Source of the DNA: a virus | Taxonomy: Duplodnaviria; Caudoviricetes | Length of the DNA stretch: 64,000 nucleotides | Reading direction: 5' to 3' (one strand) | IMG/VR virus record: IMGVR_UViG_3300035180_001680 | In this document: positions 42,140 to 54,978 of the stretch, one piece after another | How positions within the stretch are numbered: position 1 is the stretch's first letter | Layout of the letters: the number at the start of each line of letters is the position of its first letter | Translations under genes and position numbers: made by a program | Notes under the pieces: generated by a model | Told to the model about the DNA's origin: nothing | Databases searched by the model: none | The model's input: only the letters and a program-made list of their open reading frames with translations

Positions 42140-42784
42140 CTAATCAATCCCAACGATTTTTTCAATTTCAACCCGAACGCGTTCGGCTGCGACACTGGTG
42201 TATGCTTCGTTGAACATTTCTCGACAAGCCTTTAAAGATTTCGGGTCTGGAGTAAATCCACGGCCAACAAATCTGTAAAAACGGATTACCCTCAAGTAGT
42301 CTTCTTTGATACGGTCTTTGGGTTTTCCAACAAAACGTAACGTTCTCGTTTTAATATCGTCCATTCCCATACCAGTTGGGTCAATAAGCTCCATCGTTTT
42401 GGTGTTAATGTATAATGCGTTTACGGTAAAATCGCGACGGTGAGCATCATCATCGATTGTTCCCAATTCAACTTCCGCGTGGCGACCATCACATACCACA
42501 TCTTTTCGGAAATTGCTGACTTCAACGGTATAACTACTGAAATGGACGTTAAGCACAAAGTGTGCGACACCAGTCAAAGACACTTCAAATCCACCGTCTT
42601 CAAACAGTTCGATTAACCGTTTCATTGGGATATCCGTAACGATGTCGTAATCATTTGGAGTTTTTTCCATCAACAAATCACGAGTCGCTCCCCCCACAAC
42701 GTAATTGTTGTCAGAAAATGCGTTTAGTACTGTAATAATTGGGAATAACTTAATTGGGCACGTTCTTTTAAAATCAATTTTCAT
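42140..42784 (-). CDS. cca: Class II tRNA nucleotidyltransferase (CCA-adding/poly(A) polymerase family), short form
   Basis: VVGGATRD..DYDI, RRDFTVNALY, EDYLRVIRFYRF, ERV. Confidence 0.85.
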   Translation of the reverse strand: MKIDFKRTCPIKLFPIITVLNAFSDNNYVVGGATRDLLMEKTPNDYDIVTDIPMKRLIELFEDGGFEVSLTGVAHFVLNVHFSSYTVEVSNFRKDVVCDGRHAEVELGTIDDDAHRRDFTVNALYINTKTMELIDPTGMGMDDIKTRTLRFVGKPKDRIKEDYLRVIRFYRFVGRGFTPDPKSLKACREMFNEAYTSVAAERVRVEIEKIVGID

Positions 42785-43455: not shown

Positions 43456-44241
43456 TTAACTATTCATTTTTTGTTCATGTTGTGCAATTTTCTTTTTGAT
43501 TATTTCGTGAGCAGGAGTTCCAGGCTTTGTTTTTGATAAAGCCGTTTTGTGAACTTCTAATTCCTTTTTGAGTCGTTCTTGTTCCGCCGCTCTTCTACTG
43601 TCTTGCATTTGTTTAATTACACGTTGTTCTACTTCTTCTCTTGATTCTTTCCGGCGTAGTGTTACTCTATCGTTCATATCAGACCAAGCACGGTATTCTG
43701 AATTTCGTTGTTCGATTAGCATAGATGATTGTAATTTCATAAATGTGTCTTCATTAGCTAATTGCATAGGCATTAACTGTATATATTCTTCGAAATTATT
43801 TGTCCGAATTGCTTCTCTTACATCTGTTGCGGATGTAATTCGGGGTGTTTGTTTTACTTGAATATTCAATCCTGTCTTTTTGTTACTCTCTTCAACAATT
43901 TCTCTATATCGCTTAATTCTGTCTTCACCAGCATAAATTGCACGAATTTGTTTTCCTTCGTTTTTTAAATGAAACAACATTCCATTTAAGTTAGCGTTCA
44001 TTACTTCGATTACAATTGCAGAAGGAAATACTTCATGTATTAACGATTTTTGTTGTTTAAACGATAATGGATTGTTAACTTTATCTTCTGAAGAGTTTTT
44101 GCCTTTAACAACTGCGATTATAGGATTCTTCATAGATTCAATTATAGAAGCGTGCCCTTTGTGGAACGGTTGGAATCGTCCCACAAATAAATCATATTCT
44201 TGTCCTTCTTCAATGAGATACTGTTTAAACGTCTTTGTCAT
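43456..44241 (-). CDS. Cytidylyl/adenylyltransferase (HxGH) protein
   Basis: FVGRFQPFHKGH, GEDR, ITSATDVR. Confidence 0.82.
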   Translation of the reverse strand: MTKTFKQYLIEEGQEYDLFVGRFQPFHKGHASIIESMKNPIIAVVKGKNSSEDKVNNPLSFKQQKSLIHEVFPSAIVIEVMNANLNGMLFHLKNEGKQIRAIYAGEDRIKRYREIVEESNKKTGLNIQVKQTPRITSATDVREAIRTNNFEEYIQLMPMQLANEDTFMKLQSSMLIEQRNSEYRAWSDMNDRVTLRRKESREEVEQRVIKQMQDSRRAAEQERLKKELEVHKTALSKTKPGTPAHEIIKKKIAQHEQKMNS

Positions 44242-47210: not shown

Positions 47211-47783
47211 ATGAAGAAAACAGTTTTGGACACGACTGTCCACAGTTTATCATTAGCATTAAAGGAACGGGACATCGTTACAGGACTTCATTCTGAACGA
47301 GTGTGTGAACTTGCGAGATTATTAGCACAAGAACTTAAGATTACAAACAAGGATTTTCATGTTCTTAAAATGGGGGCATGTTTTCATGACATTGGAAAAA
47401 TAGGGATACCTGATAGTATTTTATTAAAAACATCTTCATTAACTGAAAAAGAGTGGGAGAAGATGAAAACCCATACAGTTATTGGTCAACAGATTGTCAA
47501 TGCTTTGGGTGTTGAAGGGTGTATTGAAGCAGGAACAATTGTTCGGCATCATCACGAATGGTTTAACGGGGAAGGATACCCCGACCAACTCGTTGGTAAG
47601 GATATCCCGCTAAATTCCCGAATTGTTAGTATAGTTGACGCATATGATGCTTTAGTATCTCATAGAACGTACCATTGTTCATTGACACACGAAGAAGCAA
47701 TTGAAACCTTAAAAACAGAAACTGGAACTAAATTCGATCCTGAAATAATGAAGGTGTTTTTATCAATTACAAAACCGTCTTAA
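47211..47783 (+). CDS. Stand-alone HD-GYP cyclic-dinucleotide phosphodiesterase
   Basis: HSERV, HDIGK, HHEWFNGEGYP, RIVSIVDAYDAL. Confidence 0.92.
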   Translation: MKKTVLDTTVHSLSLALKERDIVTGLHSERVCELARLLAQELKITNKDFHVLKMGACFHDIGKIGIPDSILLKTSSLTEKEWEKMKTHTVIGQQIVNALGVEGCIEAGTIVRHHHEWFNGEGYPDQLVGKDIPLNSRIVSIVDAYDALVSHRTYHCSLTHEEAIETLKTETGTKFDPEIMKVFLSITKPS

Positions 47784-47960: not shown

Positions 47961-48599
47961 TTAATCAGGTTTCCAAATAGGGTCAATTAGAACTAACTGG
48001 GGACCAACAGAAGTTAACCTTGCCATAATGTTTCCTGAATGTAAGTCTAAATCTGCTATAGTACCATACGTGCGTAAGAAATTAACAACTTCTTCAAATT
48101 GAGCATTGCGCTCAATTTTTTTGTTAACAATAGCATCATGATAATAATTAATCAATTGACTCGTTGCAAGACTTTTGGCAAACTGTTCACTCATTCCGAG
48201 TGCCTGAAGTTGGTGAGAAATAGCATCTTTAATTTTAGGAGAATTTAATGGTAATAATTTTTCCATGTCAACAACTCCTGTATTATCATAAACAGAATCT
48301 ATTCTGTTGATGTATATATCAAACTCTTTCCGATACAGACGAATTTTATAAATTCGAGGTAAAAAGGGGTTATTTTGGTGTTTTTGAATAAACCGCAGGA
48401 ATTGAAGATACCCATCTTCTTCTGTGTTAAAACCAAAGACTTTTGTTACCACTCCAGGCTTCTTTATTCTATCAACTACAACAGCCTGAAGGCCAGCTCC
48501 AAGGCGTTTTAATGAATCTGTGTCTGTGTAACCATTTCTAACTTTAACACTATCAGATTTTCGAAGAGCTTCTCCTCCGATAATTTCAAATAACTTCAT
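47961..48599 (-). CDS. Protein-kinase-like fold protein
   Basis: LGAGLQAVV..VTKV, LPRIY, DMEKL, DLHSGNIM, LIDP. Confidence 0.75.
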   Translation of the reverse strand: MKLFEIIGGEALRKSDSVKVRNGYTDTDSLKRLGAGLQAVVVDRIKKPGVVTKVFGFNTEEDGYLQFLRFIQKHQNNPFLPRIYKIRLYRKEFDIYINRIDSVYDNTGVVDMEKLLPLNSPKIKDAISHQLQALGMSEQFAKSLATSQLINYYHDAIVNKKIERNAQFEEVVNFLRTYGTIADLDLHSGNIMARLTSVGPQLVLIDPIWKPD

Positions 48600-48720
48600 A
48601 CAATACTCCGATTTTGAGTATTTATCAACCTCTCAACTAAGAAAACCCCAGATGCTTCTTAAAATATTATAGTTAGAATCGTTTTGATAGTCAACTACCT
48701 CGTTTCCTTGTTATATATGT

Positions 48721-48804
48721 TGGTCCACCCGGAGGGATTCGAACCCTCATAGTCAAAGACGCGAGATTAAAAGTCTCGTACCGTACCAGTTCGGTGTCGG
48801 ATGG
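48721..48804 (-). tRNA. tRNA-Lys(TTT) with 13-nt variable arm
   Basis: CCATCCG/CGGGTGG acceptor, loop CTTTTAA, variable arm CGTCTTTGACTAT, encoded CCA. Confidence 0.85.
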
Positions 48805-48809
48805 AAATA

Positions 48810-48883
48810 TGGTACACCGCCACGGTATTGAGCCGTGTTCTACAGGGTAAGAGCCTATTGCATCACCTTAATGCTTGCGGTGC
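48810..48883 (-). tRNA. tRNA-Lys(CTT)
   Basis: Loop CTCTTAC, encoded CCA. Confidence 0.8.
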
Positions 48884-48967: not shown

Positions 48968-48982
48968 ATTAAATTCCACTTG

Positions 48983-49067
48983 CTCCGGTCCGAGGAATCG
49001 AACCTCGCCTCCTTTCGGAGCCTTCGCATTAACAGTGCGAGACCTTCACCAAGCCAGTCCGACCGGA
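48983..49067 (-). tRNA. tRNA-Asn(GTT) with 16-nt variable arm
   Basis: Loop CTGTTAA, variable stem CTCC-GAAA-GGAG, G73, no encoded CCA. Confidence 0.85.
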
Positions 49068-49080
49068 GCAAGTGAAACTT

Positions 49081-49154
49081 TGGTAGTCCCTAGAAGAATT
49101 GAACTTCTGTATCTGCCATGTCACGACAGCACTCTACCATTGAGTTAAGGGACT
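49081..49154 (-). tRNA. tRNA-Val(GAC)
   Basis: CTGTC-GTGACAT-GGCAG, encoded CCA. Confidence 0.8.
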
Positions 49155-49174
49155 ATTAAATTTTTAAAGAACAT

Positions 49175-49208
49175 AAAAAAAGCCTCGGGAGATTTCTCTG
49201 CCGAGGCC
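49175..49208 (-). terminator. Attenuator terminator of tRNA array 1
   Basis: GCCTCGG..CCGAGGC followed by T7; 5' arm complementary to GCCGAGGC in the leader ORF. Confidence 0.85.
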
Positions 49209-49227
49209 TATTAACTTTTGTTTACTT

Positions 49228-49329
49228 TCAGATGATTAGTTTGATTTCAACAGTCAATGCCTCGGCGTGTGAACGTTTATTATTAACGTTTACATTATTG
49301 ATAAAAATTGGTTTAGTTGAATCGAACAT
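49228..49329 (-). CDS. Putative leader peptide 1, MFDSTKPIFINNVNVNNKRSHAEALTVEIKLII
   Basis: 33-codon ORF between promoter and terminator; Asn/Val/Lys run. Confidence 0.75.
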   Translation of the reverse strand: MFDSTKPIFINNVNVNNKRSHAEALTVEIKLII

Positions 49330-49365
49330 TTGTAAATTCTTTAAGTTTGTTAAGTTAGTGTTATA

Positions 49366-49394
49366 AGTATATATGACTTATTTATGAAAGTCAA
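49366..49394 (-). promoter_or_regulatory. Sigma70 promoter with embedded late-promoter motif
   Basis: TTGACT-ttcATAAATAagtcata-TATACT. Confidence 0.8.
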
Positions 49395-50538: not shown

Positions 50539-50614
50539 TGGTCCCGTCGGTCAGATTCGAACTGACAAAATAATAGTTTAGGAAACTATTGCCTTTCCCT
50601 TTGGCTTCGACGAG
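50539..50614 (-). tRNA. tRNA-Arg(CCT)
   Basis: ATAGT-TTCCTAA-ACTAT, encoded CCA. Confidence 0.8.
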
Positions 50615-53598: not shown

Positions 53599-53678
53599 TG
53601 GCGGGTGTGAAGGGAATTGAACCCTCCTGATTTTCCGAAGTGACAGTCCGGTGACCACGCCATGCAGTCCCCACACCC
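53599..53678 (-). tRNA. tRNA-Asp(GTC)
   Basis: Loop CTGTCAC, G73, encoded CCA. Confidence 0.82.
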
Positions 53679-53773: not shown

Positions 53774-53858
53774 TGGTACCACCGGTTGGAATCGAACCAA
53801 CTTTGAGGTTTCCCTCCAGGATTATCGGTCCTGTGCCTAACCTATCGGCCACAGTGGT
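53774..53858 (-). tRNA. tRNA-Ile(GAT) with 15-nt variable arm and C33
   Basis: CAGGA-CCGATAA-TCCTG, variable stem GAGG-GAAA-CCTC, A73, encoded CCA. Confidence 0.82.
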
Positions 53859-54897: not shown

Positions 54898-54905
54898 ATT
54901 AAAGG

Positions 54906-54978
54906 CTAGGAAGTAGAGAATCGAACTCTATACGAATGCGCTCAGAACGCACCACCTCGACCAATCGGCTTCTTCCCA
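54906..54978 (-). tRNA. tRNA-Gln(CTG)
   Basis: Loop TTCTGAG, G73, CCA not fully encoded. Confidence 0.8.

What the first reader, a model, noticed from the sequence alone, without database searches (positions are those of the whole stretch)
48721..48804. tRNA-Lys(UUU) built on a class-II (long variable arm) body
Seen: canonical Lys loop CUUUUAA, a 13-nt variable arm with a GUC-UUU-GAC stem, a Leu-like D-arm and A73, next to an ordinary tRNA-Lys(UUU). Established: bacterial long variable arms are normally limited to Leu, Ser, Tyr and Sec; bacterial LeuRS relies on A73 and tertiary shape rather than the anticodon; tRNA-Lys(UUU) is a frequent target of defence tRNases such as PrrC. Inference: either a nuclease-evading Lys tRNA or a missense (Leu at AAA) tRNA.
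Basis: partly seen in the sequence, partly recalled or inferred. Interest (0 to 1): 0.72.

Follow-up and report, generated by a model that had tools for sequence, protein, structure and literature searches.

The report
Phage lysine tRNA with extra arm
This uncultured large phage carries a genuine lysine tRNA gene with an extra hairpin arm that textbooks reserve for leucine, serine and tyrosine tRNAs; it belongs to a large, apparently unpublished family of phage tRNAs that most likely still carry lysine and may use the arm to escape bacterial tRNA-cutting defences.

Summary
Window 48721-48804 (- strand) is an 84-nt tRNA-Lys(UUU): ARAGORN, and Rfam tRNA at 50.5 bits. It has loop CUUUUAA, A73, an encoded CCA and a 13-nt variable arm (C-GUC-UUU-GAC-UAU). 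It sits beside ordinary Lys(CUU) and Lys(UUU) genes.

The "Leu-like class II body" does not hold. The D-arm is class-I type (4-bp stem, 8-nt loop), and the arm has the tRNA-Tyr layout, not the Leu layout.

It is not a one-off:
- One strict pattern found at least 117 viral contigs, giving 102 distinct long-armed Lys(UUU) genes, against about 23 real genes in 185,579 prokaryote genomes.
- Arm stems covary as strongly as T-stems.
- Across long-armed phage tRNAs (Asn, Trp, Cys, Gly, His, Pro, Lys) the discriminator base follows the anticodon's amino acid.
- The Leu-specific A15:U48 pair is not a family feature.
- AAA is this phage's commonest codon.

So cognate lysine charging is favoured (about 0.8) and Leu/Tyr missense is disfavoured (about 0.05). 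Nuclease evasion is plausible (about 0.4) but untested. Lys(UUU), Thr(UGU) and Asn(GUU), the published PARIS AriB targets, are common long-armed types.

This scan noted the same family before in many other phage genomes. I found no paper describing it.

The parts
48721..48804 (-). tRNA-Lys(UUU), 84 nt, with long variable arm (the finding)
   Evidence: ARAGORN; Rfam RF00005 50.5 bits
48749..48761 (-). 13-nt variable arm C-GUC-UUU-GAC-UAU: 1 unpaired base, 3-bp stem, 3-nt loop, 3 unpaired 3' bases (tRNA-Tyr layout)
   Evidence: Read from the sequence. Compared with E. coli and phage Cronus tRNA-Tyr and Cronus tRNA-Asn. Layout statistics.
48767..48773 (-). Anticodon loop CUUUUAA; anticodon UUU at 48769-48771
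48721..48724 (-). Discriminator A73 (48724) and encoded CCA (48721-48723)
48780..48795 (-). D-arm of class-I type: stem ACCG/CGGU, 8-nt loop AACUGGUA (A15, C16, G18 G19; no 20a/20b)
   Evidence: The same D-loop occurs in a class-I phage tRNA-Lys.
48810..48883 (-). Ordinary tRNA-Lys(CUU), 74 nt
   Evidence: Rfam 40.7 bits
48893..48967 (-). Ordinary tRNA-Lys(UUU), 75 nt
   Evidence: Rfam 42.9 bits
48982..49067 (-). Long-armed tRNA-Asn(GUU), 86 nt, G73, 17-nt arm; a second non-canonical long-armed tRNA in the same array
   Evidence: ARAGORN. Not matched by RF00005; best Rfam match is tRNA-Sec at 31 bits, below threshold.
49081..49154 (-). tRNA-Val(GAC), first gene of the five-tRNA array
49174..49208 (-). 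Terminator hairpin plus U-run directly upstream of the array
   Evidence: fold; sequence
49227..49329 (-). 33-codon leader ORF containing the run NNVNVNNK; its GCCGAGGC can pair with the terminator's 5' arm
49366..49394 (-). Promoter-like site TTGACT-17-TATACT upstream of the leader and array
   Evidence: 10 of 12 matches; the number of sites is not above chance

Best explanation
This is a working lysine tRNA of the phage. It is probably transcribed with the Val-Asn-Lys-Lys-Lys array. It reads AAA (and AAG by wobble) and is charged by the host lysyl-tRNA synthetase through its UUU anticodon and A73.

Its body is that of a class-I tRNA-Lys into which a tRNA-Tyr-type 13-nt hairpin arm is built. 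It is one member of a large, old, phage-borne family of long-armed tRNAs whose arms are kept paired by selection.

The most likely reason for the arm is that it alters the tRNA's core shape (variable region and D-arm side). Host defence nucleases that read tRNA-Lys(UUU) beyond the anticodon loop would then bind or cut it poorly, while the synthetase, EF-Tu and the ribosome still accept it. The phage keeps an ordinary copy and a disguised copy for its most used codon.

Shown: the gene, its fold, the family, arm covariation, and identity-consistent discriminators.
Inferred: expression, lysine charging (my odds about 0.8), and protection from nucleases (about 0.4).
For: 1. Real tRNA.

2. Family:
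- The pattern CTTTTAATC-N17-28-GGTTCGAATCC hit at least 117 viral contigs, yielding 102 distinct long-armed Lys(UUU) genes with arms of 11-22 nt.
- The same pattern hit only 39 places in 596 Gb of prokaryote genomes. About 23 are real tRNAs, most of them in tRNA arrays on MAG contigs.
- A 317-kb phage has Lys(UUU) and Lys(CUU) on one long-armed body plus a normal Lys(UUU).
- Cultured Caulobacter, Xanthomonas and Rhodobacter phages carry such genes annotated as tRNA-Lys.

3. The arm is selected. In 28 distinct sequences with 15-nt arms, the three stem pairs are paired in 24-27 of them, with 10, 16 and 13 double-sided changes. The covariation score is 0.684 against 0.177 when shuffled (0 of 500 shuffles reach it); slid controls reach at most 0.145.

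4. Cognate identity. Discriminators of long-armed tRNAs follow the anticodon: Asn G 15/16, Trp G 7/7, Cys U 5/5, Gly U 4/4, His C 3/3, Pro A 3/3, Lys(UUU) A 82/103. These mirror the class-I tRNAs of the same contigs. The Lys identity set is anticodon plus A73 (PMC9976931).

5. AAA is the phage's commonest codon, 48.5 per 1000.

6. The array sits behind a leader ORF rich in Asn, Val and Lys codons plus a terminator.

7. Defence context:
- tRNA-Lys(UUU) is cut by PrrC, by PARIS AriB and by a bacterial Schlafen.
- AriB also cuts Thr(UGU) and Asn(GUU). It needs contacts outside the anticodon loop, including D-loop U16.
- Long-armed Asn(GUU), Lys(CUU) and Thr(UGU) are the commonest other long-armed types beside long-armed Lys(UUU).
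- The window tRNA has C16, the change that impairs AriB cutting in E. coli tRNA-Lys.
- The phage also encodes a CCA-adding enzyme and an Rnl2-type RNA ligase.

8. Carriers are large phages: median contig 80 kb against 36 kb for class-I controls (p 6e-6), and a median of 10 against 4 tRNAs per locus.
Against: - There is no expression, charging or cleavage data.
- The anticodon loop is fully canonical and keeps U39 C40 of the AriB site. PrrC is known to accept an anticodon stem-loop alone, so an arm need not protect against it (my own knowledge).
- Other long-armed types (Ile(UAU), Trp, Cys, Gly) are not known nuclease targets.
- The match with the AriB trio comes from loci chosen for long-armed Lys and carries no statistics.
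- 21 of 103 family members have U73, which is not the E. coli Lys determinant, though 7 of 108 class-I phage Lys(UUU) have it too.
- Class II synthetases approach tRNA from the variable-loop side, so an arm could hinder LysRS (my own knowledge).
- The window tRNA has A8 instead of U8 and A15:U48.
- The pattern used fixes the T-loop and positions 39-40, so those positions cannot be assessed in the family.
Confidence: 0.55

Rival explanations
1. Evolutionary leftover. Phage tRNA arrays grow by duplication and anticodon shifts. A Tyr-type (or other class II) arm was carried into Lys, Asn, Thr and other tRNAs, or recombined into them. It is tolerated by the translation machinery and kept paired only so that the tRNA folds. 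The tRNA is a normal lysine tRNA and the arm does nothing special.
For: - The arm layout matches tRNA-Tyr, and the best E. coli match is tRNA-Tyr.
- The arm plus T-arm is 87% identical to the long-armed tRNA-Asn of Erwinia phage Cronus. This implies anticodon shifts or arm exchange between specificities.
- The best non-Lys neighbours of long-armed Lys are other long-armed Thr, Asn and Cys tRNAs, far beyond their numbers.
- The main long-armed anticodons lie one base change apart: GUA-GUU-UUU-UGU/UAU/CUU (read from the anticodons).
Against: - The family is very diverse (65 distinct arm stems, arm lengths 11-22 nt), so the arm has been kept for a long time although a simple deletion would remove it.
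- Ordinary class-I Lys genes are available in the same arrays: in 33 of 116 loci, and here.
- The types are concentrated in large phages with many tRNAs.
Confidence: 0.25
2. Recognition handle. The arm is bound by a phage-encoded protein (a tRNA-modifying, processing, repair or CCA-adding enzyme, or a phage synthetase). This marks phage tRNAs for separate handling from host tRNAs.
For: - The phage encodes a CCA-adding enzyme head domain about 6 kb away, an HD-domain protein and a kinase beside the array, and an Rnl2-type ligase.
- Long arms occur on several specificities in the same genome.
Against: - No partner has been identified.
- Arm sequences and lengths differ widely between and within genomes. 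That argues against one sequence-specific reader.
- Most tRNAs of this phage have no arm.
Confidence: 0.1
3. Missense tRNA. The class II-like features make LeuRS (or TyrRS) charge it, so AAA is partly read as Leu or Tyr, as nematode nev-tRNAs do with Leu.
For: - It has A73, A15:U48 and G18 G19, which are E. coli Leu determinants (PMC9976931).
- It has a Tyr-type arm, A73 and U35.
- nev-tRNAs set a precedent for class II tRNAs with other anticodons being leucylated (PMC3333845).
Against: - There is no A20a or extended D-loop, and the arm layout is not Leu-like.
- A15:U48 is near-universal in phage tRNA-Leu but rare in long-armed Lys, and it also occurs in 29 of 108 class-I Lys(UUU).
- Cronus tRNA-Asn shares the arm and A15:U48 yet has G73.
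- Discriminators of long-armed tRNAs track the anticodon in eight specificities, unlike nev-tRNAs, which keep Leu determinants.
- AAA is the commonest codon, so miscoding it would damage every protein.
- The UUU anticodon alone confers Lys identity in transplant experiments.
Confidence: 0.05
4. Non-translating RNA: a decoy that soaks up a tRNA-Lys-directed nuclease, or a decaying pseudogene.
For: - It is redundant with an ordinary tRNA-Lys(UUU) 90 nt away.
- It has the unusual A8.
Against: - All stems are intact, the T-loop and G18 G19 are canonical, and CCA is encoded.
- No variant letters lie inside the gene in contigs of four metagenome runs, while flanking positions vary. This is a weak signal.
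- A8 occurs in several other tRNAs of this phage.
- The family shows compensatory evolution.
Confidence: 0.05

Closest known systems
Canonical bacterial and phage tRNA-Lys(UUU) (class I shape)
   Same: Loop CUUUUAA, A73, G30-C40/A31-U39 next to the loop, 4-bp D-stem with 8-nt D-loop, T-loop UUCGAAU. The acceptor stem and D-loop are close to class-I Lys tRNAs of other phages.
   Different: A 13-nt hairpin arm instead of a 5-nt variable loop; A8 instead of U8; C1-G72.
Bacterial tRNA-Tyr (E. coli tyrT/tyrU; Erwinia phage Cronus tRNA-Tyr)
   Same: Arm layout of 1 unpaired base, 3-bp GUC/GAC stem, 3-nt loop and 3 unpaired 3' bases; A73; U35. tRNA-Tyr is the best E. coli match of the 3' half.
   Different: Anticodon UUU rather than GUA. 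The D-arm is not the extended Tyr type. Overall similarity is weak (78% over 46 nt, E = 2).
Long-armed tRNA-Asn(GUU) of Erwinia phage Cronus (NC_055743, annotated tRNA-Asn) and other long-armed phage tRNAs
   Same: Same arm and T-arm (87% over 45 nt), class-I type D-arm, A15:U48.
   Different: Anticodon GUU and G73, that is, asparagine identity.
Nuclease-resistant phage tRNAs: T5 tRNA-Lys(UUU), Thr(UGU) and Asn(GUU) against PARIS AriB; T5/SP15 tRNA-Tyr against retron-Eco7; phage tRNA-Lys against PrrC
   Same: A phage-encoded copy of a tRNA that defences destroy. It has C16, as in T5 tRNA-Lys.
   Different: Published escapes rely on point changes (U39A, A41C, U16C) or on overexpression, not on an added arm. 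This tRNA keeps U39 and C40. Resistance is untested.
Nematode nev-tRNAs (class II tRNAs with Gly/Ile anticodons, charged with Leu; PMC3333845)
   Same: A long variable arm on a tRNA whose anticodon is not Leu, Ser or Tyr.
   Different: nev-tRNAs derive from tRNA-Leu and keep LeuRS determinants. Here the body and discriminator fit the anticodon's amino acid.
Bacterial allo-tRNAs (my own knowledge: Mukai et al. 2017)
   Same: A long arm combined with non-Ser anticodons in bacteria.
   Different: allo-tRNAs have 8/4 or 9/3 acceptor/T-stem geometry and serine identity. This tRNA is a standard 7/5.

Membership tests
tRNA (Rfam RF00005) | Cloverleaf scoring above the curated threshold, with T-loop and G18 G19 | tested here: met
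   50.5 bits against a gathering score of 29; no non-standard pair
tRNA-Lys (class IIb LysRS identity set) | Anticodon U34 U35 U36 and discriminator A73 | tested here: met
   Read from the sequence; the rule is taken from PMC9976931
tRNA-Lys (class IIb LysRS identity set) | Actually charged with lysine | not testable with these tools
   Needs an aminoacylation assay
Class II (long-arm) tRNA | Variable region of 10 nt or more forming a stem-loop | tested here: met
   13 nt with a 3-bp stem. Stem covariation is shown in the family; by chance alone a 3-bp hairpin appears in 45% of shuffles.
Class II (long-arm) tRNA | Class II type D-arm (usually a 3-bp stem with a 9-11 nt loop) | tested here: not met
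   4-bp stem and 8-nt loop. Phage Leu, Ser and Tyr genes mostly have 9-11 nt loops.
Bacterial tRNA-Leu identity (E. coli type) | A73, A15:U48, G18 G19 | tested here: met
   Present. But A15:U48 also occurs in 29 of 108 class-I phage Lys(UUU).
Bacterial tRNA-Leu identity (E. coli type) | A20a / extended D-loop, and a Leu-type arm with about 1 unpaired 3' base | tested here: not met
   No position 20a is present, and the arm has 3 unpaired 3' bases. Leu has 1 in 59 of 91 cases.
Bacterial tRNA-Tyr | Arm with a 3-bp stem and 3 unpaired 3' bases; A73 | tested here: met
Bacterial tRNA-Tyr | Anticodon GUA (G34, U35, A36) | tested here: not met
   The anticodon is UUU
nev-tRNA-like missense tRNA | Body and determinants of tRNA-Leu kept despite a foreign anticodon | tested here: not met
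   Family discriminators follow the anticodon, the 15:48 pair is not Leu-like, and the 5' halves are not enriched for Leu neighbours
allo-tRNA | 8/4 or 9/3 acceptor/T-stem | tested here: not met
   7-bp acceptor stem and 5-bp T-stem
Nuclease-resistant phage tRNA variants (AriB escape type) | Changes at U39, A41 or U16 relative to the cleaved host tRNA | tested here: inconclusive
   The tRNA has U39 (unchanged), C40, U41 (not A) and C16 (as in T5). The host and its defences are unknown.
Nuclease-resistant phage tRNA variants (AriB escape type) | Resists cleavage and rescues infection | not testable with these tools
   Needs cleavage and plaque assays

The most novel reading that the evidence does not exclude
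Long-armed Lys, Asn, Thr and other tRNAs are a general phage counter-defence. Grafting a Tyr-type arm onto a tRNA changes the shape of its core. Host tRNA-cutting immune nucleases that read the D-loop and variable region as well as the anticodon stem (PARIS AriB-like, Schlafen-like and others) would then no longer dock, while synthetases, EF-Tu and ribosomes still accept the tRNA. Large phages would thus carry a shape-shifted spare set of exactly the tRNAs that defences destroy.
Probability: 0.33. Interest if true: 0.85.

Novelty: new variant of a known kind. Interest (0 to 1): 0.64.

Why it matters
Textbooks and recent reviews restrict long variable arms in bacteria to Leu, Ser, Tyr and Sec tRNAs. 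Here a lysine tRNA, and in the same phage Asn and Ile (plus Cys and Glu tRNAs outside the window), carry such arms. The design recurs in hundreds of phage contigs with compensatory evolution.

If they are charged with lysine, LysRS and other class IIb synthetases tolerate a large arm on the side from which they approach the tRNA. That is useful for tRNA engineering. If the arm blocks defence nucleases, it is a new structural route of phage counter-defence, beside the published point mutations and overexpression, and it can be tested directly with existing PrrC, PARIS and Schlafen assays. If they were mischarged, it would be programmed miscoding of a phage's commonest codon.

For annotation, it warns that arm length must not be used to infer Leu, Ser or Tyr identity in phage genomes.

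Tried and rejected
- Megablast of 8 kb around the gene against the phage collection: no match.
- Exact 21-mer of the anticodon arm in viral contigs: none.
- Relatives fetched through the neighbouring kinase gene: 17 loci at 25-40% identity, of which only one (L014) held tRNAs.
- Blastn of the tRNA against phages gave only partial matches. No close homologue of this particular gene was found; its best neighbours score 25-27 of 84.
- Sequencing runs: no RNA holder listed. Contigs of four DNA runs from sediment and microbial-mat metagenomes show no variant letter inside the gene. Too few variants overall for a test.
- PF09511 (T4 Rnl1) search of the record: nothing rang, in the control genomes either, so it says nothing.
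- The idea that public records annotate these genes inconsistently (Lys, Ser or Tyr) is rejected. The four hits I checked that were annotated Ser or Tyr are true Ser(UGA/ACU) and Tyr(GUA) tRNAs with similar bodies.
- Nearest-neighbour classing of whole cores and 3' halves is biased, because my search pattern fixes the T-loop in both Lys sets. Only the 5' half result is used.
- The ratio of long-armed to ordinary Lys(UUU) in viral contigs could not be obtained.
- The hairpin significance of the single 13-nt arm is not above chance.
- Stop-codon recoding was considered because a CUA-anticodon tRNA exists. Code 11 gives normal gene density.
- The ARAGORN call of an 84-nt 'Lys(CUU)' at genome 38559-38642 has a mismatched anticodon stem and C37, so I do not count it.

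Full report
**What is there**

ARAGORN finds 19 tRNA genes on the minus strand of the window. One is a tRNA-Lys(UUU) at exactly 48721-48804. Its cloverleaf, read on the minus strand, is:
- a 7-bp acceptor stem (CCAUCCG/CGGGUGG), then A8 C9;
- a 4-bp D-stem (ACCG/CGGU) with the 8-nt loop AACUGGUA;
- anticodon stem CGAGA/UCUCG with loop CUUUUAA;
- a 13-nt variable region C-GUC-UUU-GAC-UAU;
- T-arm GAGGG-UUCGAAU-CCCUC, A73 and an encoded CCA.

The general Rfam tRNA model scores it 50.5 bits (gathering score 29). It shows no non-standard pair and treats 10 nt of the variable region as an insertion. Immediately upstream lie tRNA-Lys(CUU) (74 nt), an ordinary tRNA-Lys(UUU) (75 nt), tRNA-Asn(GUU) (86 nt) and tRNA-Val(GAC).

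**Where the description is wrong**

The D-arm is not Leu-like and the body is not class II.
- The phage's own long tRNA-Leu genes have 11-nt D-loops. This gene has the 8-nt class-I loop.
- The same D-loop and a near-identical acceptor stem occur in class-I tRNA-Lys genes of other phages.
- The arm has the bacterial tRNA-Tyr layout. E. coli tRNA-Tyr reads C-GUC-AUC-GAC-UUC and Erwinia phage Cronus tRNA-Tyr reads U-GUC-AUCGC-GAC-UUC, against C-GUC-UUU-GAC-UAU here.
- In 5,424 of 5,426 E. coli genomes with a match, every row listed is tRNA-Tyr. The similarity is weak: 78% over 46 nt, E = 2.
- Across phage contigs the number of unpaired bases 3' of the arm stem is 1 in Leu (59/91) and Ser (67/90), 3 in Tyr (40/71), and 3-4 in long-armed Lys(UUU) (74/103).

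**Context**

The window lies in a 178,796-bp virus record with 36.5% G+C. CheckV rates it 52% complete, so the phage may be a jumbo phage. It has T4-like genes such as rIIA and UvsW, but only at 25-30% identity to known phages. It comes from sediment or microbial-mat metagenomes.

The record holds 42 tRNA genes by ARAGORN. Further long-armed ones carry non-Leu/Ser/Tyr anticodons:
- Asn(GUU), 86 nt, with G73;
- Ile(GAU), 85 nt, with A73;
- Cys(GCA), 86 nt, with U73;
- Glu(UUC), 87 nt.

There is also a class-I-shaped tRNA-Leu(UAG) of 77 nt. The phage encodes a CCA-adding enzyme head domain, an Rnl2-type RNA ligase, and an HD-domain protein and a kinase next to the array.

**A large phage family**

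A strict pattern (Lys loop plus positions 39-40, 17-28 free bases, then the common T-arm motif) hit at least 117 viral contigs. ARAGORN confirms long-armed Lys(UUU) genes in 116 loci. These give 102 distinct sequences with arms of 11-22 nt (modes 15 and 17) and 65 different arm stems.

The same pattern hit only 39 places in one genome each of 185,579 prokaryote species. About 23 are real tRNAs, and most lie in arrays of 4-21 tRNAs on MAG contigs, which looks like phage DNA.

Carriers are large phages. Their median contig is 80 kb against 36 kb for contigs found with the class-I version of the pattern (p = 6e-6), and 16 against 4 contigs exceed 200 kb. A 317-kb phage holds Lys(UUU) and Lys(CUU) on one long-armed body plus a normal Lys(UUU). 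Cultured Caulobacter (phiCbK group and relatives), Xanthomonas (XacN1) and Rhodobacter phages carry such genes, annotated simply as tRNA-Lys.

**The arm is a selected structure**

For the window's arm alone, a 3-bp hairpin is no better than chance (45% of shuffles). The family gives the evidence. In a gap-free alignment of 28 distinct sequences with 15-nt arms, the three stem pairs are paired in 27, 26 and 24 sequences, with 10, 16 and 13 double-sided changes. The covariation score is 0.684 against 0.177 in shuffles (0 of 500 reach it) and at most 0.145 when partners are slid. This is comparable to the T-stem.

**Which amino acid?**

Four lines point to lysine rather than Leu or Tyr.

- *Discriminators.* Among long-armed phage tRNAs the discriminator base follows the anticodon: Asn G (15/16), Trp G (7/7), Cys U (5/5), Gly U (4/4), His C (3/3), Pro A (3/3), Ile and Met A, Lys A (82/103). 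This mirrors the class-I tRNAs of the same contigs, not the A/G/A of Leu/Ser/Tyr. Nematode nev-tRNAs are the opposite: they keep Leu determinants and are leucylated (PMC3333845).
- *Leu tertiary pair.* A15:U48 is present in 136 of 140 phage tRNA-Leu genes, long or short, but in only 13 of 103 long-armed Lys(UUU). The window gene has it, but so do 29 of 108 class-I Lys(UUU). Cronus tRNA-Asn has it too, together with the same arm and a G73. The gene lacks A20a and the extended Leu D-loop (rule from PMC9976931).
- *Lys identity.* Lys identity rests on the anticodon triplet and A73, and a transplanted UUU anticodon suffices to confer it.
- *Codon usage.* AAA is the phage's most used codon at 48.5 per 1000. 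A miscoding tRNA would hit every protein.

That fits an array whose members serve Asn, Val and Lys codons. It does not by itself tell which amino acid is attached.

**Why an arm?**

This part is inference. tRNA-Lys(UUU) is the repeated target of defence nucleases: PrrC, PARIS AriB and a bacterial Schlafen.

AriB also cuts Thr(UGU) and Asn(GUU), and phage T5 needs its own versions of all three. Cutting depends on U39, A41 and D-loop U16, and on further contacts away from the anticodon loop. In the loci I collected, the commonest long-armed types beside Lys(UUU) are Asn(GUU), Lys(CUU) and Thr(UGU), and the window gene has C16.

This overlap is suggestive only:
- the loci were chosen for long-armed Lys;
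- other long-armed types are not known targets, notably Ile(UAU), which is long in 9 of 15 cases in control loci, and also Trp, Cys and Gly;
- the gene keeps U39 and C40.

The main alternative is that the arm is an inherited passenger of duplication and anticodon shifts. Three observations support it:
- the arm plus T-arm is 87% identical to that of Cronus tRNA-Asn;
- the nearest non-Lys neighbours of long-armed Lys are long-armed Thr, Asn and Cys, far above their share;
- the anticodons involved are single steps apart.

Against a purely neutral passenger stand its long maintenance, its diversity, and its coexistence with ordinary copies.

**Literature and earlier notes**

Six full-text searches and six papers read gave no description of long-armed Lys, Asn or Thr tRNAs in phages. 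Reviews still list only Leu, Ser, Tyr and Sec. The eLife paper on phage tRNA escape does not mention the variable region.

This scan has noted the same family many times on other phage DNA (180 notes in at least 166 genomes, including e1-227686, e1-4047742 and e1-3416748). My results agree with those notes. They add three points: the Tyr-type layout of the arm, the class-I body of this particular member, and the 15:48 and discriminator statistics.

**Verdict**

This is a real, probably functional lysine tRNA with a Tyr-type extra arm, and a new variant of a known kind within a widespread phage family.
- Its "Leu-like body" is wrong.
- The missense reading is unlikely.
- The evasion reading is open and testable.

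Noticed in passing
window 48982-49067 (-): tRNA-Asn(GUU) of 86 nt with a 17-nt hairpin arm, a Ser/Tyr-like D-arm, G73 and no encoded CCA. It is the only Asn tRNA found in the record. It fails the general Rfam tRNA model, and its best match is tRNA-Sec at 31 bits, below threshold.
   Followed up: partly
window 53774-53858 (-) and 53599-53678 (-): tRNA-Ile(GAU) of 85 nt with a 4-bp arm. tRNA-Asp(GUC) of 80 nt with an 11-nt D-loop and a 7-nt variable loop; its D-arm and variable loop nearly match an 80-nt tRNA-Ala(UGC) outside the window (genome 61377-61456), as if one body were reused.
   Followed up: no
window 49174-49394 (-): A promoter-like site, a 33-codon leader ORF (MFDSTKPIFINNVNVNNKRSHAEALTVEIKLII) and a strong terminator hairpin with a U-run lie directly before the Val-Asn-Lys-Lys-Lys array. 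A leader segment can pair with the terminator's 5' arm.
   Followed up: partly
genome C1 37394-37512 (outside the window): tRNA-Tyr(GUA) interrupted by a 33-nt insert in the anticodon loop, found only with ARAGORN's intron mode. Its variable arm is also 13 nt (lead from note e1-5381197).
   Followed up: partly
genome C1 37712-37788 (outside the window); loci L019-L251: Class-I-shaped tRNA-Leu (77 nt, no long arm) in this phage. About a third of tRNA-Leu genes in the sampled phage contigs are short (49 of 140) yet keep A73 and A15:U48. A cellular precedent exists in Streptomyces (PMC6614811, seen).
   Followed up: partly
loci L136-L251 (control viral contigs): tRNA-Ile(UAU) carries a very long arm (median 24 nt) in 9 of 15 distinct genes, with a short D-loop and A73. 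This looks like a separate long-armed phage tRNA family.
   Followed up: no
window, several tRNAs (e.g. 48721-48804, 48810-48883, 50539-50614, 54904-54978, 63929-64002): Position 8 is A instead of the near-universal U in several tRNAs of this phage. Among long-armed Lys(UUU) elsewhere it is A in 8 of 102.
   Followed up: no
genome C1 46568-46641 (outside the window): A tRNA with anticodon CUA (amber suppressor type). The standard code still gives normal gene density, and TAG ends 9 of 123 long ORFs.
   Followed up: partly
window 42335-42703 (-), 43456-44241 (-), 47211-47783 (+), 47961-48599 (-): A CCA-adding enzyme head domain (PF01743, 102 bits), a cytidylyltransferase-like protein, an HD-domain protein (PF13487) and a T7-like protein kinase homologue lie within 6.5 kb of the array. 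An 11/12 sigma-70 promoter match at 48666-48694 lies between the long-armed tRNA and the kinase gene.
   Followed up: partly
L018:5973-6054 (Erwinia phage Cronus, NC_055743): A cultured T4-like phage has an 82-nt tRNA-Asn(GUU), annotated tRNA-Asn. It has the same GUC/GAC arm and T-arm as the window's tRNA-Lys, beside ordinary Lys and Tyr tRNAs.
   Followed up: yes
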